64,000 nucleotides of DNA from a virus, in the IMG/VR virus record IMGVR_UViG_3300042359_000621. One strand, 5' to 3'. The translations under genes and the position numbers were made by a program. Under the pieces are notes generated by a model. That model did no database searches, had not been told where the DNA came from, and saw only the letters and a list, made by a program, of their open reading frames with translations. Shown in pieces: positions 35,982 through 63,746 of this stretch (position 1 is the stretch's first letter; each line of letters begins with the position of its first letter).

Positions 35982-36196
35982 TTACCTGTTGCCAATTGCT
36001 CCTGATAATGGATTTAATTTGCCAATGCGTATTCTAATATTGCCTGATAATCAGGAAAGTGATAGGCTATTTGACCCCCAAGGAGTGAGAGTTCTTTTAG
36101 TGCGGATGCGTATCTATCCTTTGTTGGTGAATTCATTTTTTATTAATGCTTACTTAGGTTTAACCCCTCTAAATATTTAGAGGGTTTATTTTTTGA

Positions 36197-36532
36197 TTAG
36201 CTCATGCTCAATATAAACGCCTCTTGTTCCTCAATGACTCGCCATTCCTGTCTATCTTCTTCGAGCCAATTGATATTTTTAGCTAATTCGGCACAGTACA
36301 TCGCCCGTTTTTGTTCAACAGTCCATCTAGGGAGCGCGAAGGCATCCGTAAACAGATCCGCGTCGGATGATAAGGACTGATAAGCTAACAACGCCACGGC
36401 TTTCATTTTGCCCTGTTGCGCGGCGTAAATCTTGAGCCGTTGCCAGTCCGAGAGGGAGATCGTCGTTGCCTTTGTGCCACCGCCGTTGATGGAATCTAGT
36501 TCTGCCTCAACCGGTAAGCCGGTATAACCTAT
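36197..36532 (-). CDS. nuclease-module partner A2 (paralog of 60468..60806), ATA in place of ATG
   Basis: Upstream extension ..LKALQG-I-GYTGLPVEAELDSINGGGTKATTISLSDW.. aligns with ..LKELQG-M-GFTGRTKDTEVKIARGATRSKTISSRDF..; may be decaying. Confidence 0.4.
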   Translation of the reverse strand: MGYTGLPVEAELDSINGGGTKATTISLSDWQRLKIYAAQQGKMKAVALLAYQSLSSDADLFTDAFALPRWTVEQKRAMYCAELAKNINWLEEDRQEWRVIEEQEAFILSMS

Positions 36533-36562
36533 ACCCTGAAGGGCTTTGAGTGGTAGAAACCT

Positions 36563-37255
36563 TTATTCCGGTTCGTAGGTTAAAACAATACCCATATCTT
36601 GACAATGAGACTCTACCAATAAAATAAAATCTGGACTCGCGCATCCAAAGAAGTGAATCCGTTTTTCATGCTCTGGATAATACTTTCCATAACAGAAAAC
36701 CTGTCCTATAGCTTCTTTCCATCGTTTCCAATCTTTGATCTCGATTAATTGAGTGTCGGTTAAAATGTCGATTCTCCCAGCTAATGTTGAGACTTCGAGC
36801 TTTGCATTGAGTAAAGTTTTTGCCAGTTTCTTCTGTATGATCTTCTCGACTTGATTAGGGTTTAATGTCTTTTTAATTCGAGGCTCTAACGATGTTGCAC
36901 GTTCTATCTTTGAGTTTTTTGTTAGTAATCTCATGGCGTCTCTTTTTCCCTCAGATGCAGCAAAAGATATTAAGACATCAAAATCTGACTGTGAAAGCGT
37001 CTGAGCGCACCGACCACCGCCATTAATACTTTCACATACTACAGGAATAAACTCGCCCGTATAACCCATTCTTTCTAATGTCTTCGAGGCTTTGCCAACC
37101 CTGCTAGTGATCTGAGTCAACCAGTTTTCCGCATACCCTAAAGCCAAACTCGCCCCAACCATCCCAACTCGGAACTCGCCATTGGGCATCATGTACCCAT
37201 CAACAGAAATTCCTTCTACATATTCGATAGTTGCCCGTTGTGATTTAATTGTCAT
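36563..37255 (-). CDS. Bro-N/KilA-like N-terminus plus PD-(D/E)XK nuclease (module A1)
   Basis: C-terminus ..GRIDILTDTQLIEIKDWKRWKEAIGQ.. (D..ExK); paralog of 59807..60415. Confidence 0.6.
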   Translation of the reverse strand: MTIKSQRATIEYVEGISVDGYMMPNGEFRVGMVGASLALGYAENWLTQITSRVGKASKTLERMGYTGEFIPVVCESINGGGRCAQTLSQSDFDVLISFAASEGKRDAMRLLTKNSKIERATSLEPRIKKTLNPNQVEKIIQKKLAKTLLNAKLEVSTLAGRIDILTDTQLIEIKDWKRWKEAIGQVFCYGKYYPEHEKRIHFFGCASPDFILLVESHCQDMGIVLTYEPE

Positions 37256-37284
37256 TGTGACTATTTCCTTAATTAATGGTTACG

Positions 37285-37334
37285 GCTCCTGGGTGCGACG
37301 AACACCGCGAGGAGCATTTCTATTATTAATTATA
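37285..37334 (-). promoter_or_regulatory. TGATATAAT promoter plus conserved leader hairpin (copy A)
   Basis: -10 at 37334..37329. Outer stem 37285-90/37310-15, inner 37292-95/37303-06. Covaries with copy B. Confidence 0.55.
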
Positions 37335-37502
37335 TCAATATTTTATTAGTTTGTCTGTTAATTAAGCCACGTCAAACAAACTTAATTGCTTAAATTCCGG
37401 TTGTTTTAACTCCATGATTTCTAACTCTGTTTCTGAATATTCCCTGGGTTGGGAGATGCGATCGTGTGATACAATATAATCAGATTATTGGGTAACAACA
37501 CA

Positions 37503-57440: not shown

Positions 57441-59672
57441 ATGGTCACAATTTCAAGTTATCAAAATCTCCTTCGCTTTGATGCTGCTCCTACGGAAGTG
57501 CAGATGAAACTTGGTATTTCTCAAGTTTTGTCGATGCCATTTGCCTACAACTCTCCGGTTATCGTTCTGGACTTTGAAGTAGGCAATAAAAACATCATCA
57601 AGGGACGGTTTAAGGATGCCATTAGATCCCGTGTTTTTGAGTTTGAGATTGGGGATTCTATCACGTTCAAGCCGTTCACCTGGAGGCGAACGGATAGCGA
57701 CGTTGACCCGATGGCGTGGGAAGACTTCTCTAAAGGGTATTGCTACCGATTCGATGCAGTTAAGACCGTCAGAAAGGAAAAACCTAAGTGTGGCAATACC
57801 TCCTATAACTGCGGCAAAGCCTGCATTGGCTTAAACAAGAATTGCAAATCAGATCCCCCCGATAAACCGTCCCAGGAGAAAGTCGATAAACTCAGAGCCG
57901 CAGCAGGGGAGTTTAAAGCTGTTCAGGGCGATCCAACCAAGAAGCAAGAGGATAATAAGTTAACGCCAAAACCACAGGAAGTTAAGGCGGTTAAGACCAA
58001 AACTGCTAAGGGCGCGATCGCTAAATCAGAAACACCACCAAAAACACCCAAGACAACTAGACCCAAGGTAGGGACAAAGCAGTATGACGAATGGCTAGAA
58101 ACCGAATCTCAAAAACTCAAGGGTAAAGATGGGGAATATGTAATTAAAACCCGTTCGGGGGATGAGACGGTCAAAGGAACCGTTTATGGCAATGGATTGG
58201 GGATTAATCCAAATAAAGGGTCTTTGTACAACACTCACAGCGTTACGCACATCGGCAGTGGCAGATCGTTGGGTGATTTTGATGATGAAGTTCAGGCTAA
58301 AAAGGCATTAGTTGAGTTGAACCGATCCGGCGTTAATTGGAGCGAACAAGACTTAACAAAAATTCCAGGGATAGAGAAGAAAATAGTCAAAGTTAAGGGC
58401 TTGATAGATAATGCCAAAGACTCGGACTTAAGGGTTAAACGGGATGCTAAAAGGAAGGTGATAGAGGAAAAACGAGCTAAAGACGATGCCAAAATTGAGG
58501 CTGGTATGCAAAGGTTTAGAGAGGAAGAAGCTAAGAAAAAACAACAGGCTGAAATAGACAGAAAAATACAAGAGGAAAAAAATAAGGTAGAGCGTGAAAA
58601 GCAAGTTGAGGCTATGAAAAAGATGGCAGAAGATCAAGCAAAAGTTTATCAAGATTATGAGATCAATAGAACAAATCAACTGATCGGAGAATTGAAATCA
58701 TCCTTTGATGTTAAGTCATTGGAGTCTGAAGTTAGCGTGCTGGAATCGAGGCTAAAGACGGAATCATCTCCCAAGGCAAAAAAAGAGTTAAACCAACGAT
58801 TAAATAATGCAAACATCAAACTAAAGGAGGTTAAAACATTTTTATCTCAGGACAAACTTGAAACCTATCCCGCTTTTTTGAAATCCAGAGTAAAGGGAAT
58901 GGCTAATACTGTTGGGATTGAAAAAACCAGGGAGATTTTACAGGAGCAAATTGACAATTACAAGAAACAAGTAAAGGAGGAGCCAAAGCAAAAAACAATA
59001 AAAGTTCAAGGGGAGCGATCGCAAGAACAAGAATCCCCTCTAATTCCGAAAGAAGAAATAGTTAAAGAGGCTCCTAAGCGAATTGGGGATGGAACCCAAA
59101 AAAGCTCCCCTCTTAATGCTCAGGAATACCACAAAATGATGGTTGAGAGAGGGAATAATATCTCAATAGAAGAAGCTGAGGAAACTGTTAAATCAATCGT
59201 GTCGTGGAAACTTAGAAACGATGCCATAAGAGGAGATCAGCAACAAGGAAAGCCCAATAAAGATGCAGATAACATTGATAACTTTATCAAAAACTCTACA
59301 CCTTATGAGGGAATGGTCGCTAGAGGGCTTAAGTTTTTCAGTAAAGAGGAAGCAGCAAACTTTATCAAAGGGGATGAGAATGGGATATTAAATAACCAGT
59401 CTGCTCATGCTTCATGGACTTCTGATTTTGATCAAGCTAAGAGGTTTGCTGATGTAGAGTCAAAAACAAATCCCTACTGGAAGGAATATTCTGAAAATCT
59501 TTATCCTGTGATTGTCCTTGCCAAAAATAAAACAGGTGTTCCAGCCCAAAATACAGGAGATGGATTACATAGTAACGAAGCCGAGGTTATTGTTTCAAAG
59601 AATACAAGGCATAAAGTTGTTAGGGTGATAGATAGAGATGGAATTATTTTAGTGGAAACCGAAGAAGTGTAA
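57441..59672 (+). CDS. family member 2: shared N-terminal module, K/E-rich coiled-coil middle, C-terminal ADP-ribosyltransferase
   Basis: R-S-E triad: ..GMVARG (R628), ..HASWTSD (S658-S661), ..SNEAEVIV (E713/E715). Confidence 0.7.
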   Translation: MVTISSYQNLLRFDAAPTEVQMKLGISQVLSMPFAYNSPVIVLDFEVGNKNIIKGRFKDAIRSRVFEFEIGDSITFKPFTWRRTDSDVDPMAWEDFSKGYCYRFDAVKTVRKEKPKCGNTSYNCGKACIGLNKNCKSDPPDKPSQEKVDKLRAAAGEFKAVQGDPTKKQEDNKLTPKPQEVKAVKTKTAKGAIAKSETPPKTPKTTRPKVGTKQYDEWLETESQKLKGKDGEYVIKTRSGDETVKGTVYGNGLGINPNKGSLYNTHSVTHIGSGRSLGDFDDEVQAKKALVELNRSGVNWSEQDLTKIPGIEKKIVKVKGLIDNAKDSDLRVKRDAKRKVIEEKRAKDDAKIEAGMQRFREEEAKKKQQAEIDRKIQEEKNKVEREKQVEAMKKMAEDQAKVYQDYEINRTNQLIGELKSSFDVKSLESEVSVLESRLKTESSPKAKKELNQRLNNANIKLKEVKTFLSQDKLETYPAFLKSRVKGMANTVGIEKTREILQEQIDNYKKQVKEEPKQKTIKVQGERSQEQESPLIPKEEIVKEAPKRIGDGTQKSSPLNAQEYHKMMVERGNNISIEEAEETVKSIVSWKLRNDAIRGDQQQGKPNKDADNIDNFIKNSTPYEGMVARGLKFFSKEEAANFIKGDENGILNNQSAHASWTSDFDQAKRFADVESKTNPYWKEYSENLYPVIVLAKNKTGVPAQNTGDGLHSNEAEVIVSKNTRHKVVRVIDRDGIILVETEEV

Positions 59673-59721: not shown

Positions 59722-59774
59722 TGTTATAATTAATAATAACAAACGCCTCTCGCGGTGCGCTAACACCCAGAGGC
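59722..59774 (+). promoter_or_regulatory. TGTTATAAT promoter plus conserved leader hairpin (copy B)
   Basis: -10 at 59725-30. Outer stem 59745-50/59769-74, inner 59754-57/59764-67. Confidence 0.55.
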
Positions 59775-59806
59775 AGTAAACCTAAAACTTAAAACAGAGG
59801 TTCACC

Positions 59807-60415
59807 ATGTCGGATATTGTAAGATCAATCCGTGCCGAATTGGAACTAGGCAACAGAAGTATTGACTGCTATCTATTCCCAGATGGGGAGAAACGGATCG
59901 GAATTGGTGGCGCGAGTATTGCCATCGGACGGAGTAAAGAGTATTTGGGTCGCTTATTGAAAAGCGAATCAGAGGATCTCGGAAAACTCAAAATCATGGG
60001 ATTCTGTGGAAAAATTGTCGAAACGGAGTTTCTGTTTGGGAGAGGATCTACTCGCTCCAAAACTATTTCTTTGGCTGATTTTGATATTCTGATGATGTTT
60101 TTTGTTGACTTGCGGATGAAAAAAGAAAAGAAAAATCCTGAAGGTATTGTTAGGGATAAGTTATTAGAACAGTCAGGGGGATCTAAAGAGGTTTCTACAT
60201 TGGCAGGAAAGATAGACATATTAACCCCATCGCAAATAATAGAAGTAAAACAGGTTAATGGATGGAAAGGGGCTTTAGGACAAGTTTTAGTCTATGGATA
60301 TTATTACCCGTCTCATCAGAAAAGGATTCATTTGTTTGGAGAGTGCCATAGTAGCTATCTCGATATTATCCAAAAACATTGTCAAGAATTTGATGTTATT
60401 GTTACATGGGAATAA
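59807..60415 (+). CDS. Bro-N/KilA-like N-terminus plus PD-(D/E)XK nuclease (module B1)
   Basis: ..GKIDILTPSQIIEVKQVNGWKGALGQ.. (D..ExK); paralog of 36563..37255. Confidence 0.6.
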   Translation: MSDIVRSIRAELELGNRSIDCYLFPDGEKRIGIGGASIAIGRSKEYLGRLLKSESEDLGKLKIMGFCGKIVETEFLFGRGSTRSKTISLADFDILMMFFVDLRMKKEKKNPEGIVRDKLLEQSGGSKEVSTLAGKIDILTPSQIIEVKQVNGWKGALGQVLVYGYYYPSHQKRIHLFGECHSSYLDIIQKHCQEFDVIVTWE

Positions 60416-60467
60416 GATTTACCAGGTCGGCTAAACGGAGTCTAAAGCCCTCAAAGAGCTACAGGGT

Positions 60468-60806
60468 ATGGGTTTCACAGGTCGCACAAAAGACACTGAG
60501 GTTAAGATAGCCAGAGGTGCGACACGAAGCAAGACCATCTCATCCAGAGACTTTACGAAGTTAATCACATGGGATGCGGTAGTCAATAATAATCAAGATT
60601 CCATTATTTTGTTGGCTGCGTTTGCCGAGACGGGGTTGGATGACATATTGGAAAAAGTCTTCACACGGCAATCGTTGGACTTTCTGTTAGAAAAAATAGT
60701 CCACTATAGCAAATGGACTATGGAAGACTTACAAGAAGCCCTCGATGCAAATAACGATGATTGGAGAGTGATCAGGGAACAAGAGCAGTTTTTATTAGAG
60801 GGCTAA
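60468..60806 (+). CDS. nuclease-module partner B2
   Basis: N-terminus repeats the central MGFTG..T.S..DF domain of B1; C-terminus ..WRVIREQEQFLLEG matches A2 ..WRVIEEQEAFILS. Confidence 0.55.
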   Translation: MGFTGRTKDTEVKIARGATRSKTISSRDFTKLITWDAVVNNNQDSIILLAAFAETGLDDILEKVFTRQSLDFLLEKIVHYSKWTMEDLQEALDANNDDWRVIREQEQFLLEG

Positions 60807-60938: not shown

Positions 60939-63746
60939 ATGATTACAACTCCCGTCATCAAAGCAAACCAATCTAACATGGCTCCCACCGAAGTTCAGAT
61001 GAAGTTAGCGATCGCGCAAGTCCTATCCCTTCCATTTGCCTACAACTCCCCCGTAATTGTCGTTGATTTTGAGGCAGGTAACGGGAATGTGATCAAGGGT
61101 AGATTTAAGGATGCCTCCCGACCCCGTATATTTGAATTTAAGATTGATGACTCCATAAGTTTTAAGTCATTTACCTGGAAAAGAATAGACAGCGCGGATA
61201 TCGATCCAGTGGTGTGGGAAGAATTTTCTAAAGGGTACACCTATCGGTATGACGCAGTTAAAACCAAGAGGAAGGAAAAACCTAAGTGTGGCAATACCTC
61301 CTACAATTGTGGCAAAGCCTGTATTGGGTTGAATAAAAACTGCAAATCAGATATACCGGATAAACCCTCCCAAGAAAAAGTCGATAAACTCAGAGCCGCA
61401 GCAGGGAAATTTAAAGCCGTTCAGGATGATCCAATCAAGAAGCAAGAAGATAATAAATTAACGCCAAAACCACCGGAAACAAAACCGACACTAGCGAACG
61501 AAGATAAAATGCGCGATACACTAAAGAAAGCTATCGCGGAAAATGAGTTGAATAAAAGTTTAGCAGAAACAGCTTATCAAAAATACCACCAGTATCAAAA
61601 CGGACTAAAAAATGAAGCAGAAGGTTTATCATCTCGGTCTATCGCTAGTTTATATCAAATCCCCCACGCCACTGCTGTAGCTAGAATTAACGGACTTAGA
61701 GAAGCTGTTGGACTAGGAGGGTCTAATGCTGTATCTGTTGACAAAGAATTAGGGGGAAGAATTAACGACCTTTTAAATAATGGGAAACAAATTAAAATTA
61801 ATTCGTCAGGCGGTCAACTAAAAGATCGGAAAAAAGAACCAAGTCAAACAACAATTAATGCTGACAAAAAATGGTCTGACTTTTTAGAATCTAAAAATGT
61901 TACAGAGAAAGGACTTAGAAAACTAGACCCTGAGACTAGAAAGAAAATTACAGAAGAATTTGAAAATACTCGGATTGAAGAAAGGGCTCAGGAGTCAAGC
62001 AAAAGGAAAGGTCTATCACTACCTGAAGACCCCAAACCATCCCCAAATTCAACAGGGGTTAAGGGTGCGGGGGGTAAGACACTTGACCTAAAAGATTTGT
62101 GGCAACAGACAGCCGACGCTGCTTATTCTAAAAATAAAGATGGGGTCTCAAAAAATCTTGAGCAATGGAAAGAAGTTGTTAAAAAACTAGAGTCAGGGGA
62201 GGGAATTTCTAAAGATGTTAACTTAAACGAATACGAAAAGTTGATGGATAATTTAGAAAGAAAATTAGTCCTTAACCCAAAAGATCCGTCTAATGTCGAG
62301 TTTAAAAAAATTACTGGGTCTATTTATAGAACTCTTGACAAGGCTGTAAGATACGATCCGTTAACTCAGGAAGATTTAGAAAAAGCTCACCCCAACTTTA
62401 GACCCATCATGCAACGGATGAAAAAAACCGTTACCAAGGTAAACGAATTATCCGGTAAAAAACAGCAATTACAAAAGGAATTAGACACATTAAAACACAG
62501 ACAATCTTATAACGAGCTTATAGTCAAATCTAATTCAAGGCAATTTCGTGAAACGGCGATTGACAATAATTATAATGAGCTTAGGCTCCTTACGATGCGA
62601 AACCCGAATGACATGATAGAAGTCAGAAATCCAGTATCTAATCTCCCAGAAAGGACAGTATCCATCCCGACAAGGATTAATGAGATCAACAAAGATATTA
62701 GAGATTTGGCAGACGATAAAAAGGCTGTGGAGTCTTCAGATCGTGCTAAGGGCGAAATAGCTAAATTACAGACCAAAATTAAAGATGCTGAAAGTCGGGC
62801 AACTTCCTTAGATGGTGAAATTAAGGCGTTAAGAGAATCGAGAGGAACGGGATCTGTTTTATCAGAACCTAAGTCAGCCCCTATTCCTGCTGTAGCACAA
62901 AGAGCGATCGCTAAAACCAAGACTGACAAACCCCCTGTTAAATCGGTTGATCAACAATACAAGGATATTATTGCCAGTTCTAAAGATCCAAAAGGAACAG
63001 AGGAGGCTTTGTCATCGGCACTCAGAGGCGGTATAGGTGACTTCGAGAGAAAGAATTATAACGAGTATTTAACTGCGATAGCTTCTGGGACAGTCCCAAA
63101 AGGAATGGGAGACTATTATCAAAAGCAAATTGATAAATATAAGCCCGTTATTGATGCCGAAAACTTCATAAACGAGAGACGGCAAAAGGCAAAAGCAGGT
63201 GATTATGAAACAGAATCAGAAGCAGGGGTTTATATTCTTGATAAACTAAAACAAAAAGGCTACAAAGAGCATGAATATTATGATAGTCCAGACTATAAAA
63301 TGGATTATGACAAATTAAAAACCGTAATGAAGTCTATGGAATTACCTCCCCCTCTGTCTGGTAATATTCCTAGTAAGGAATTAAAACAGACACTAACTCA
63401 GGGGGATAAATTGCTAGTTAAAGAAAGCACTTATTCTATGATGGGAGGAAGTTCCCCTGCGGGTTATCGAATTGTTGACGGTGGCGAAGTTCTAAAAGTT
63501 AATGTCAAGAATGTTAAAACAAGAGTCCAGGGCGAGTATATGGGGAAACCTTATAAAAATGAGCCATCCCTTGCCCTTGATACAGTTACCCACGTCATCC
63601 GAGATGGTAAACGTTACAAAGTAGATGATTCTGATAGTTCCCCTAACGACTTAAAGCCTGAAGTTACTCAACCCCAGAAGGCAGTAAAACAAAAGTCAAT
63701 AAAACAAAAGGCGATAAAAGTTCAAGAGGTGCGATCGCAAGGTTAG
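60939..63746 (+). CDS. family member 3: shared N-terminal module plus 750-aa unrelated C-terminal region
   Basis: N-terminal ~175 aa is co-linear with member 2, with DNA stretches near-identical (e.g. AAACCTAAGTGTGGCAATACCTCCTA). Confidence 0.65.
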   Translation: MITTPVIKANQSNMAPTEVQMKLAIAQVLSLPFAYNSPVIVVDFEAGNGNVIKGRFKDASRPRIFEFKIDDSISFKSFTWKRIDSADIDPVVWEEFSKGYTYRYDAVKTKRKEKPKCGNTSYNCGKACIGLNKNCKSDIPDKPSQEKVDKLRAAAGKFKAVQDDPIKKQEDNKLTPKPPETKPTLANEDKMRDTLKKAIAENELNKSLAETAYQKYHQYQNGLKNEAEGLSSRSIASLYQIPHATAVARINGLREAVGLGGSNAVSVDKELGGRINDLLNNGKQIKINSSGGQLKDRKKEPSQTTINADKKWSDFLESKNVTEKGLRKLDPETRKKITEEFENTRIEERAQESSKRKGLSLPEDPKPSPNSTGVKGAGGKTLDLKDLWQQTADAAYSKNKDGVSKNLEQWKEVVKKLESGEGISKDVNLNEYEKLMDNLERKLVLNPKDPSNVEFKKITGSIYRTLDKAVRYDPLTQEDLEKAHPNFRPIMQRMKKTVTKVNELSGKKQQLQKELDTLKHRQSYNELIVKSNSRQFRETAIDNNYNELRLLTMRNPNDMIEVRNPVSNLPERTVSIPTRINEINKDIRDLADDKKAVESSDRAKGEIAKLQTKIKDAESRATSLDGEIKALRESRGTGSVLSEPKSAPIPAVAQRAIAKTKTDKPPVKSVDQQYKDIIASSKDPKGTEEALSSALRGGIGDFERKNYNEYLTAIASGTVPKGMGDYYQKQIDKYKPVIDAENFINERRQKAKAGDYETESEAGVYILDKLKQKGYKEHEYYDSPDYKMDYDKLKTVMKSMELPPPLSGNIPSKELKQTLTQGDKLLVKESTYSMMGGSSPAGYRIVDGGEVLKVNVKNVKTRVQGEYMGKPYKNEPSLALDTVTHVIRDGKRYKVDDSDSSPNDLKPEVTQPQKAVKQKSIKQKAIKVQEVRSQG

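What the first reader, a model, noticed from the sequence alone, without database searches (positions are those of the whole stretch)
59722..60806. Two paralogous, inversely oriented two-gene PD-(D/E)XK nuclease modules: candidate free-standing homing or recombination cassettes
Module B (59807..60415 plus 60468..60806, + strand) and module A (36563..37255 plus 36197..36532, - strand) share several features. Both have a TGnTATAAT promoter and a conserved leader. Gene 1 in each has a Bro-N/KilA-like N-terminus, a central ..MG(Y/F)TG..G...T(L/I)S..DF.. domain and a C-terminal D..E-x-K nuclease core (IDILT..IE(I/V)K..GQ). Gene 2 re-uses the central domain and ends ..WRVI.EQE.F.L. Each module is self-contained and sits between unrelated functional blocks: A between nblA-tmk and the exonuclease, B between family members 2 and 3. 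That placement is typical of mobile homing-endonuclease genes. B lies inside the polymorphic array, so its cuts could drive the cassette exchange inferred there.
Basis: partly seen in the sequence, partly recalled or inferred. Interest (0 to 1): 0.7.

Follow-up and report, generated by a model that had tools for sequence, protein, structure and literature searches.

The report
Nuclease cassette splitting a phage gene
Each "two-gene module" in this Planktothrix cyanophage is one ordinary 175-residue phage gene cut in two by an inserted piece of DNA that encodes a restriction-enzyme-like nuclease; closely related phages carry the same gene uninterrupted, so the insert behaves like a mobile, homing-type element of an undescribed family.

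Summary
The two modules are paralogous: gene 1 is 36% identical (E 3e-43) and gene 2 is 28% identical (E 4e-9).

The unit is not a free-standing two-gene cassette. Gene 1 matches positions 5-116 of the 178-position family phrog_32599, and gene 2 matches positions 66-175. Phage PaV-LD and many cyanobacteria carry this gene intact.

At module A, metagenomic phages have the intact gene at the same place. Their flanks are 95% and 91.5% identical to the window. About 568 nt in the window replace about 31 nt in those phages.

The insert is fused in frame after host codon 46. It encodes a diverged second copy of the rest of the host N-domain, a linker and a 95-residue domain. That domain has invariant E, D, ExK and Q residues and a confident alpha-beta-beta-beta-alpha-beta model.

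This nuclease domain has at least 2,571 representative relatives. It has no Pfam or NCBIfam model, and it is joined elsewhere to KilA-N, Rha, Bro-N or helix-turn-helix domains.

The A-type insert sits in four host-gene lineages, and each lineage has a close intact allele. Gene 2 stays under purifying selection.

Mobility is well supported. Self-catalysed homing is inferred, not shown. The promoter and the leader hairpin belong to the host gene, not to the insert.

The parts
37329..37357 (-). Module A promoter (CAGACA-17-TATAAT with TG extended -10). It belongs to the host gene.
   Evidence: The same sequence lies upstream of the intact PaV-LD ORF028L and of L003.
37285..37315 (-). Module A 5'-leader hairpin (GCTCCT..AGGAGC outer stem, GGTG/CACC inner stem). 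It belongs to the host gene.
   Evidence: 99.1% paired over 10 loci, 7 of 11 pairs compensatory.
37118..37255 (-). Gene 1A codons 1-46, the host-derived 5' part of the interrupted phrog_32599-family gene.
   Evidence: 100% aa and ~95% nt identical to the intact allele P0009/L003. Homology ends after ...GAAAACTGGTT.
36551..37117 (-). A-type insert (~568 nt). It holds a diverged replacement copy of host residues ~47-115 (central'), a linker, the nuclease domain, TAA (36563-36565) and a 12-15 nt spacer.
   Evidence: Absent from L003/L004, where ~31-34 nt lie in its place. Net +537 nt = 179 codons, in frame.
36566..36850 (-). PD-(D/E)XK-like nuclease domain of gene 1A (E137, D163, E172-x-K174, Q185).
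   Evidence: Invariant residues. AF2 pLDDT 94.8 with alpha-beta-beta-beta-alpha-beta-alpha-beta order. Fold hits. Weak Cas4a2 hit, E 0.0047.
36197..36550 (-). Gene 2A, the displaced 3' two-thirds of the host gene (host residues ~57-173). The frame is open from the TAA of gene 1A; the codon at 36532 is ATA and the first ATG is at 36406.
   Evidence: 94% aa identical to residues 57-173 of intact P0009. Matches phrog_32599 positions 66-175.
36165..36184 (.). GC-rich hairpin just after gene 2A, a likely terminator shared with PaV-LD.
   Evidence: Identical in L002.
59722..59730 (+). Module B extended -10 element TGTTATAAT. It belongs to the host gene.
   Evidence: A similar element lies upstream of intact PaV-LD ORF068R.
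59745..59774 (+). Module B 5'-leader hairpin, identical to that of PaV-LD ORF068R.
59807..60415 (+). Gene 1B: host-type N-terminus, B-type central' copy, and nuclease domain (about 60116-60412).
   Evidence: The ortholog P0022 in L012 is 78% identical.
60441..60806 (+). Gene 2B, the displaced 3' part of the host gene. Host-like coding sequence (SKALKELQG) starts ~9 codons before the ATG at 60468.
   Evidence: phrog_32599 positions 66-172. Purifying selection versus L012: dN 0.14 with dS saturated; central part dN/dS 0.06.

Best explanation
Each module is one ancestral ~175-residue cyanophage gene. It belongs to family phrog_32599 (function unknown), carries its own extended -10 promoter and a structured 5' leader, and is common in cyanobacteria. 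A ~540-570 bp nuclease cassette has interrupted it in frame.

The cassette has no promoter, ribosome-binding site or start codon of its own. It is read as a continuation of the host's first ~46 codons. It supplies a diverged copy of the remainder of the host N-terminal alpha/beta domain, then a linker and a 95-residue PD-(D/E)XK-type nuclease domain, then a stop codon. The displaced host residues ~57-173 follow as a separate gene 2.

Shown:
- the split architecture;
- presence or absence of the cassette at one locus with near-identical flanks;
- the same cassette lineage in four host-gene lineages;
- a conserved catalytic signature and predicted fold;
- purifying selection on gene 2 in the split state.

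Inferred:
- The fusion protein is a site-specific endonuclease that cuts intact alleles near codon ~50-57.
- The cassette is copied in by double-strand-break repair (homing). The host N-terminus serves as the left homology arm and residues 57-173 as the right arm.
- The original junction arose by one-sided homologous invasion through the shared N-domain plus end-joining at the break.
For: Split architecture:
- Gene 1 matches phrog_32599 positions 5-116 and gene 2 matches 66-175.
- PaV-LD ORF028L and ORF068R are intact, with the same leaders.

Presence or absence at one locus:
- L003/L004 carry intact P0009 directly upstream of nblA-tmk. Their flanks are 94.8% and 91.5% identical to the window, and the ~568 nt insert is missing.
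- L035, another PaV-LD-like genome, has a split allele at the ORF028L locus.

Same cassette in several host lineages:
- Split/intact pairs with close host parts: winA~P0009 (N-terminus 100%, gene 2 94%), L005~P0181 (90%, 91%), L010~P0183 (96%, 87%), L009~P0200 (77%, 71%).
- The cassette-borne central' copies form their own group (49-89% identical to each other) against 29-51% identity to any host copy.
- Identity is mosaic. L005 versus L007 is 57% in the N-terminus and 86% in the nuclease. L005 versus L010 is 85% and 67%.

Nuclease domain:
- Invariant E, G, D, ExK, GQ and Y across 102 diverse members.
- AF2 pLDDT 94.8 with the canonical strand order.
- The high-probability PDB hits are PD-(D/E)XK nucleases: Cdn1, Card1, FANCM, MUS81, CdiA-CT and Avs4.
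- BFVD hits include annotated restriction or endonuclease-like phage proteins.
- Cas4a2 hit at E 0.0047.

Modular family typical of selfish nucleases:
- 2,571 representatives.
- N-termini include KilA-N (20), Rha, Bro-N, ParB-N and helix-turn-helix domains, and the host-type N-domain (39 of 119).
- Second nuclease genes lie next to the split modules in L005 and L010.

Other points:
- Gene 2 is kept under selection. For winB versus L012, dN is 0.14 with dS saturated.
- The arrangement appears in independent ENA, JGI, Logan, NCBI and IMG/VR assemblies, so it is not an assembly artefact.
Against: - No cleavage activity, target site or transfer event has been observed.
- Matches to solved PD-(D/E)XK structures are weak: best E 7.6e-3, TM at most 0.59. 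No Pfam or NCBIfam nuclease profile matches, and sequence searches of the PDB are empty.
- N-domain plus nuclease is also a widespread stand-alone gene type with no host remnant (L007, L031, L032/L033, L034). The nuclease may therefore have a cellular or phage function unrelated to homing.
- Module B has no close intact allele. Its mobility is inferred only from its architecture and its different genomic context in L012.
- Host lineages are only ~57% identical in the left arm, which is poor substrate for homologous repair between lineages.
- Repeated precise loss, rather than gain, cannot be formally excluded.
Confidence: 0.6

Rival explanations
1. Ordinary domain-swap paralogy without self-mobility. 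N-domain plus nuclease ('X') and N-domain plus helical C-domain ('H') are two old paralogous gene types that share promoter, leader and N-domain. General recombination between them in co-infecting phages produced X followed by a 5'-truncated H. The nuclease serves the phage (host or competitor DNA degradation, regulation, recombination) rather than its own spread.
For: - X is a common stand-alone architecture: 39 of 119 representatives have the host-type N-domain, and stand-alone X genes occur in L007, L031 and L034.
- An H-like gene lies immediately upstream of an X gene in L032/L033.
- A stand-alone X gene (L007) and a neighbouring KilA-N gene carry the same leader hairpin.
- Whole leader-gene-terminator units sit at different genome positions.
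Against: - The right junction is at the same host position (profile positions ~49-59) in every split locus, in both the A-type and B-type lineages.
- Four host lineages each have a close intact allele.
- The window and L003 change abruptly from 95% identity to unalignable at codon 46, and back to 91.5% at the second junction.
- These are features of a site-directed insertion, not of random paralog recombination.
Confidence: 0.28
2. One reading: each complete two-gene module, with its own promoter and leader, is a free-standing homing cassette that inserts between unrelated genes.
For: - The leader-gene-terminator units do occur at different genomic positions in related phages: near nblA-tmk, in the structural block, and after a tape-measure-like gene.
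- The immediate flanks of module B resemble those of PaV-LD ORF068R although the coding regions are ~40% identical.
Against: - The promoter, the leader, the first 46 codons and the whole of gene 2 are present in nuclease-free intact alleles at the same locus. The polymorphic piece is therefore internal.
- Gene 2 is a host fragment.
- The intact gene family is far commoner than the split form: 152 clusters against about 10.
Confidence: 0.07
3. The insert is a self-splicing intron or an intein, so that an intact host protein is restored after transcription or translation.
For: The insert is in frame, and in module A gene 2 is in the same frame as gene 1 behind a single TAA.
Against: - Rfam finds no group I or II intron in either module, only chance-level hits with E above 0.3.
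- The insert is coding almost to its last base.
- It replaces ~31-34 nt of the intact allele rather than being precisely added.
- Stop codons end gene 1 in every locus, and the frames differ in module B and L005, which excludes an intein.
- Splicing would still leave two copies of the central region.
Confidence: 0.02

Closest known systems
Homing-endonuclease insertions that leave a phage gene in pieces: mobE in nrdA of Aeromonas phage Aeh1 (PMC3045599). From my own knowledge, not checked here: mobA between T4 genes 39 and 60.
   Same: A mobile nuclease gene lies inside a phage coding region. The host gene survives as two separately translated pieces. Sequence that came with the insertion becomes part of the host polypeptides. 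Relatives carry the uninterrupted gene.
   Different: - Here the nuclease has no expression signals of its own and is translationally fused to the host's N-terminal fragment.
- It carries a diverged duplicate of ~60 host residues, which completes the N-domain.
- The nuclease is PD-(D/E)XK-like rather than HNH.
- The host gene's function is unknown, and reassembly of the two pieces is untested.
I-Ssp6803I, the PD-(D/E)XK homing endonuclease of cyanobacteria (reviewed in PMC3384342)
   Same: A small restriction-fold nuclease acting as a selfish element in the cyanobacterial world.
   Different: - I-Ssp6803I is intron-encoded in a tRNA gene and recognises DNA as a tetramer, without a separate DNA-binding domain (PMC3384342).
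- The present domain shows no sequence match to any PDB chain.
- I-Ssp6803I did not appear among the top 50 fold hits.
- The present domain is always joined to a separate N-terminal domain.
Free-standing phage homing endonucleases of the Seg (GIY-YIG) and Mob (HNH) type (PMC2988022), and nuclease genes at boundaries of genetic exchange between phages (PMC10448857)
   Same: Modular build of a DNA-binding part plus a small catalytic domain. Patchy distribution among close relatives. Location at mosaic boundaries.
   Different: Those genes are intergenic with their own expression signals and have a different catalytic fold. Here the insertion is intragenic and in frame.
KilA-N, Rha or Bro-N proteins of phages and giant viruses with variable C-terminal domains
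   Same: - The nuclease domain is the C-terminal partner of KilA-N in 20 of 149 representatives, and of Rha and Bro-N in others.
- It is 31-39% identical to parts of giant-virus 'KilA-N domain-containing proteins'.
   Different: The N-domain of the window genes is not KilA-N or Bro-N by Pfam or by fold search. The C-terminal domain itself has no Pfam model.

Membership tests
PD-(D/E)XK (restriction-endonuclease-like) superfamily | Alpha-beta-beta-beta-alpha-beta core | tested here: met
   AF2 model, pLDDT 94.8: H16-30, E35-40, E43-48, E52-58, H59-73, E80-86, H91-103, E106-110.
PD-(D/E)XK (restriction-endonuclease-like) superfamily | Acidic residue on strand 2 and (D/E)xK on strand 3, conserved, with an upstream helix Glu | tested here: met
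   E20, D46, E55 and K57 (plus G67, Q68 and Y72) are invariant in 102 diverse sequences. D46 lies in E43-48 and E55-x-K57 in E52-58. Both window copies keep them.
PD-(D/E)XK (restriction-endonuclease-like) superfamily | Significant structural or profile similarity to established members | tested here: inconclusive
   - PDB Foldseek best hit E 7.6e-3. The high-probability hits are Cdn1, Card1 (TM 0.59), FANCM, MUS81, CdiA-CT and Avs4.
- BFVD restriction or endonuclease-like proteins at E 1.7e-3 to 8e-2.
- Cas4a2 at E 0.0047.
- No Pfam, NCBIfam or PDB sequence match.
PD-(D/E)XK (restriction-endonuclease-like) superfamily | Metal-dependent phosphodiester cleavage | not testable with these tools
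   Needs biochemistry.
Homing endonuclease gene (functional class) | Presence or absence among close relatives at the same site, with conserved flanks | tested here: met
   - Module A against L003/L004 (flanks 94.8% and 91.5% identical) and PaV-LD.
- Three further split/intact pairs.
- Not met for module B, which has no close intact allele.
Homing endonuclease gene (functional class) | The encoded enzyme cleaves the insert-free allele at or near the insertion point, and the insertion destroys the site | not testable with these tools
   The only indirect hint is that the right junction is at the same host position (profile 49-59) in all split loci.
Homing endonuclease gene (functional class) | Lateral spread, shown by element phylogeny discordant with host-gene phylogeny, or co-conversion tracts | tested here: met
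   - Cassette central' copies group together across four host lineages.
- N-terminus and nuclease identities are mosaic.
- The left junction varies: codon 46 in the window, about codon 58 in P0004.
Free-standing HEG (Seg/Mob type) | Intergenic location with its own promoter, ribosome-binding site and start codon | tested here: not met
   The insert begins inside codon 46 of the host ORF. The promoter, leader and ATG are host sequences present in intact alleles.
Group I/II intron-encoded or intein-encoded HEG | Self-splicing RNA or protein context | tested here: not met
   No Rfam intron match. A stop codon ends gene 1, and the frames differ in module B and L005.
phrog_32599 (host gene family) | Profile match over the family model | tested here: met
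   Gene 1A E 2.3e-32 (positions 3-116), gene 2A E 4.9e-31 (66-175), gene 1B E 6.8e-19, gene 2B E 1.2e-13. Together they cover the 178-position model.
   No Pfam hit at E up to 1. The AF2 model of the intact protein (pLDDT 90.7) has no PDB match (best E 1.2).

The most novel reading that the evidence does not exclude
A previously undescribed way for a selfish nuclease to live inside a gene. The cassette has no expression signals. It takes over the host gene's promoter, structured leader, start codon and first ~46 codons. It brings its own diverged copy of the rest of the host's N-terminal domain, so that a complete DNA-binding domain is rebuilt in front of a PD-(D/E)XK nuclease. It targets genes of the very family whose domain it copies, at codon ~55.

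Two nuclease lineages show the same architecture. The nuclease domains of A and B are 47% identical, and the B nuclease is closer to nucleases with helix-turn-helix N-termini. This would mean recurrent, site-directed invasion. The nuclease domain would then be the founding member of a large unannotated family of mobile or conflict nucleases in cyanobacteria, cyanophages and giant viruses.
Probability: 0.25. Interest if true: 0.75.

Novelty: new variant of a known kind. Interest (0 to 1): 0.58.

Why it matters
- It gives a clean natural pair of filled and empty alleles, with 91-95% identical flanks, for an uncharacterised nuclease in bloom-forming Planktothrix phages. The homing hypothesis becomes directly testable with a defined substrate.
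- It shows a third way, besides splicing and tail-mediated reassembly, in which a nuclease insertion and its host gene can coexist. The insert duplicates the part of the domain it disrupts and fuses itself to the host's N-terminus.
- It flags a nuclease-like domain with at least 2,571 representative clusters that no curated library models. This domain is the recurrent partner of KilA-N, Rha, Bro-N and helix-turn-helix modules from cyanobacteria to giant viruses.
- It affects annotation. Gene callers treat these loci as two unrelated hypothetical genes.

Tried and rejected
- Pfam, NCBIfam and PADLOC scans of all four proteins gave no family for the nuclease domain. The only exception is a weak Cas4a2 hit.
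- PDB sequence searches with 8- and 102-sequence profiles gave nothing meaningful.
- Rfam at a permissive threshold on both modules gave only chance hits and no intron.
- A Foldseek search of the intact host protein against the PDB found no match, so the host gene's function remains unknown.
- The leader motif was searched in the window. It occurs only upstream of the two modules, so it is not a general phage promoter element.
- Literature searches found no description of this domain or this arrangement.
- The genome-collection scan with the 102-sequence alignment failed for lack of a conserved stretch. The 8-sequence alignment returned only 11 loci: 10 cyanobacterial, and one contig binned as a gammaproteobacterium that also carries a B-type module.
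- I looked for a close intact allele of module B among 273 fetched proteins and found none above 49% (N-terminus) and 39% (gene 2) identity.
- I considered stop-codon read-through joining genes 1A and 2A, which share a frame. I rejected it as a general mechanism because the frames differ in module B and L005.
- I considered an assembly artefact. I rejected it because the arrangement recurs in independent assemblies from five sources.
Full report
**What is in the sequence**

The window is a relative of Planktothrix phage PaV-LD (~85% nucleotide identity in shared stretches).
- gene 1B, 59807..60415 (+), 202 aa
- gene 2B, 60468..60806 (+), 112 aa
- gene 1A, 36563..37255 (-), 230 aa
- a gene 2A reading frame, 36197..36532 (-)

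Gene 1A and gene 1B are 36% identical (E 3e-43). The two gene 2 products are 28% identical (E 4e-9).

The flanks of module A are as described: nblA, thymidylate kinase, and a gene with an Rv2179c-like 3'-5' exoribonuclease domain. Module B lies between 743-aa and 935-aa proteins whose N-terminal ~190 residues are plainly alike.

One correction applies. Gene 2A has ATA, not ATG, at 36532, and its first in-frame ATG is at 36406.

**What the modules are**

A scan against PHROGs gave the key result. Gene 1 matches positions ~5-116 of the 178-position family phrog_32599. Gene 2 matches positions 66-175 of the same family. The two genes of a module are therefore two overlapping pieces of one gene.

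PaV-LD has that gene intact twice: ORF068R (178 aa) and ORF028L (172 aa). A profile search found at least 152 clusters of the intact 170-200-residue form in cyanobacteria and cyanophages, all unnamed and without Pfam domains. The nuclease-bearing form is rare, with about ten clusters.

**The empty site**

Metagenomic contigs L003 and L004 carry the intact protein P0009 directly upstream of nblA-tmk, exactly where module A sits. BLASTN gives two matching blocks:
- window 37464..37119 = L003 4792..5137, 94.8% identity
- window 36550..36162 = L003 5169..5557, 91.5% identity

Between these blocks the window has ~568 nt where L003 has ~31. The net gain is 537 nt, or 179 codons, in frame.

The left junction falls after ...GAAAACTGGTT, at codon 46. 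Host sequence resumes at AAAGCCCTTCAGGG, which encodes (L)KALQG. PaV-LD ORF028L shows the same thing with a more diverged coding region. L035, another PaV-LD-like genome, has a split allele at the ORF028L locus.

The insert encodes, in order:
- a diverged second copy of host residues ~47-115 (46% identical to the copy retained in gene 2A)
- a linker
- the nuclease domain
- TAA and a short spacer

**The nuclease domain**

An exhaustive HMMER search found 2,571 representative proteins (E up to 1e-3). Most are 200-250 aa with the domain at the C-terminus.

E20, G43, D46, E55, K57, G67, Q68 and Y72 are invariant in a 102-sequence alignment. AlphaFold2 on that alignment gives pLDDT 94.8 and the order alpha-beta-beta-beta-alpha-beta-alpha-beta. 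The Asp lies on strand 2 and ExK on strand 3.

Foldseek against the PDB is weak, with a best E of 7.6e-3. However, the high-probability hits are PD-(D/E)XK nucleases: Cdn1, Card1 (TM 0.59), FANCM, MUS81, CdiA-CT and Avs4.

Against BFVD the best hits (E 1e-11 to 8e-7, 31-39% identity) include five giant-virus proteins annotated as KilA-N domain-containing (moumouvirus, megavirus, Heterosigma akashiwo virus), plus uncharacterised giant-virus and algal-virus proteins. Phage proteins annotated as restriction or endonuclease-like follow at E 2e-3 to 8e-2. PADLOC gives a weak Cas4a2 hit on residues 125-188 (E 0.0047).

No Pfam, NCBIfam or PDB sequence match exists. Every public source calls family members hypothetical.

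I accept PD-(D/E)XK as the fold on the basis of motif and topology. Direct similarity to known members is only suggestive.

**A modular family**

Among 149 representatives the N-terminal partners are:
- KilA-N in 20, Rha in 3, MarR in 2, and Bro-N, ParB-N and PadR in one each
- the host-type N-domain in 39 of 119

N-terminal types are interleaved in a neighbour-joining tree of the nuclease domain. Stand-alone N-domain plus nuclease genes with no host remnant exist in L007, L031 and L034. In L032/L033 such a gene lies just downstream of an H-like gene.

The module B nuclease is only 47% identical to that of module A. It is 62-65% identical to nucleases with non-host-type N-termini, several of them helix-turn-helix. 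A and B are therefore different cassette lineages.

**Evidence for mobility**

The A-type cassette sits in four host-gene lineages. Each lineage has a close intact allele:

| Split locus | Intact allele | N-terminus identity | Gene 2 identity |
|---|---|---|---|
| winA | P0009 | 100% | 94% |
| L005 | P0181 | 90% | 91% |
| L010 | P0183 | 96% | 87% |
| L009 | P0200 | 77% | 71% |

The cassette-borne central copies group together (49-89% identity). They are only 29-51% identical to any host central region.

Identities along gene 1 are mosaic. L005 versus L007 is 57% in the N-terminus and 86% in the nuclease. L005 versus L010 is 85% and 67%.

The right junction is at the same host position (profile 49-59) in every split locus, including the B lineage. 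The left junction varies.

This is the pattern expected of a site-directed insert spread by recombination with variable co-conversion. Repeated precise loss is less parsimonious but is not excluded. For module B no close intact allele was found. Its ortholog in L012 lies in a different context, after a 2,336-aa tail protein.

**Gene 2 is not debris**

Window B and L012 are both split. Their gene 2 sequences differ by dN 0.14 with saturated dS, and the retained central part has dN/dS 0.06.

Start codons differ between loci:
- ATG in module B
- GTG overlapping the gene 1 stop in L012
- TTG three bases after the stop in L035
- TTG in L005

The window's gene 2A has no obvious start. It lies in frame behind the TAA of gene 1A, and its expression is uncertain.

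AlphaFold2 of the intact protein (pLDDT 90.7) shows an alpha/beta N-domain (residues 1-113) and a helical C-domain (119-172). Gene 1 therefore has a complete N-domain. Gene 2 has a partial N-domain plus the C-domain.

**Promoter and leader**

The extended -10 elements are real. The leader is a hairpin with strong covariation: 99.1% paired, 7 of 11 pairs with compensatory changes, 0 of 500 shuffles, and slid controls at 35-46%.

The leader precedes intact alleles, a stand-alone nuclease gene and a KilA-N gene. It belongs to the host gene family, not to the insert. It occurs only twice in the window.

**Rejected alternatives**

- Intron or intein: no Rfam intron, stop codons, differing frames, and replacement rather than clean addition.
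- Assembly artefact: the arrangement recurs in independent assemblies.
- Free-standing two-gene cassette: contradicted by the intact alleles.

**Mechanism**

Shown:
- in-frame insertion
- fusion to the host N-terminus
- duplication of the disrupted domain segment
- presence or absence polymorphism
- lateral distribution
- a conserved catalytic signature

Inferred:
- The fusion protein cuts intact alleles near codon ~55.
- The cassette is copied in by break repair.
- The founding event was a one-sided homologous invasion, through the N-domain shared with a stand-alone N-domain plus nuclease gene, followed by end-joining at the break.

The main rival is ordinary paralog recombination with a nuclease that serves the phage.

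**Comparison with known systems**

The closest precedents are:
- mobE in nrdA of phage Aeh1, where sequences created by the insertion became essential parts of the split protein (PMC3045599)
- the PD-(D/E)XK homing endonuclease I-Ssp6803I of cyanobacteria (PMC3384342)
- free-standing Seg and Mob endonucleases (PMC2988022)
- nuclease genes at exchange boundaries between phages (PMC10448857)

The present case differs in three ways. It is translationally fused to its host gene. It carries a substitute for the domain segment it displaces. It uses an unannotated nuclease family.

**Verdict**

This is a real feature, reinterpreted. It is a new variant of a known kind, and its interest is moderate to high because the hypothesis is now directly testable.

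Noticed in passing
window 59745-59774 (+) and 37285-37315 (-); also L001, L002, L003, L005, L007 (two genes), L009, L010, L012: A conserved 5'-leader hairpin lies ~10-15 nt downstream of the -10 box. The outer stem is 6 bp, followed by a CGC bulge or internal loop and a 4-bp inner stem (GGTG/CACC, AGTG/CACT, GATG/CATC, GACG/CGTC). 7 of 11 pairs show compensatory changes. It also precedes a KilA-N gene in L007, and it matches no Rfam family. It could be a regulatory RNA element or an operator for this gene family.
   Followed up: partly
nuclease domain: window 36566-36850 (-) and 60116-60412 (+): The domain family has at least 2,571 representative clusters at 50% identity, yet no Pfam, NCBIfam, PHROG or PDB counterpart. 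Members are mostly cyanobacterial. The family is 31-39% identical to parts of giant-virus and algal-virus proteins, several of them annotated as KilA-N domain-containing (moumouvirus, megavirus, Heterosigma akashiwo virus).
   Followed up: partly
L010 2536-3171 (+); L005 6143-6805 (-): A second gene with the same nuclease domain lies next to the split module. It has a different, helix-turn-helix or Rha-like N-terminus, and its nuclease is ~62% identical to that of module B. Nuclease genes of this family therefore cluster in these phages.
   Followed up: no
L012 7011-7397; L032/L033 2531-2992: Further truncated or complete copies of the host (phrog_32599-like) gene lie directly beside nuclease-bearing copies. 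In L032/L033 they are near a DnaB helicase gene. An IS605-type TnpB gene follows in L032, and a resolvase gene in L033.
   Followed up: no
L035 ~1805-1810; window 36530-36532: ATA replaces ATG at the conserved start of gene 1 in L035. The gene 2A position that is ATG in module B is ATA in the window. This may be non-canonical initiation or decay, and it is unresolved.
   Followed up: no
window 57441-59672 and 60939-63746; PaV-LD ORF061R and ORF065R: The large proteins flanking module B share a nearly identical N-terminal ~190 residues and then diverge completely. The intergenic pieces (...GCTAACGGC.C..AAGATTGGTAA, and an inverted repeat TTAG.ATGGGG...CCCCATGCTAA after gene 2B) recur in PaV-LD next to ORF068R. 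The block is rearranged between the two phages.
   Followed up: partly
window 36165-36184: A perfect 8-bp GC-rich hairpin lies between gene 2A and the nblA region. Its T-run is on the + strand only, so it would terminate transcription coming from the opposite direction. It is conserved in PaV-LD, L003 and L007.
   Followed up: no
L025 (JBIPMB010000298.1) and L017: A 4.4-kb contig carrying a B-type module, with a nuclease domain identical to the window's, is binned in a 'Gammaproteobacteria bacterium' MAG. This is probably a mis-binned cyanophage contig.
   Followed up: no
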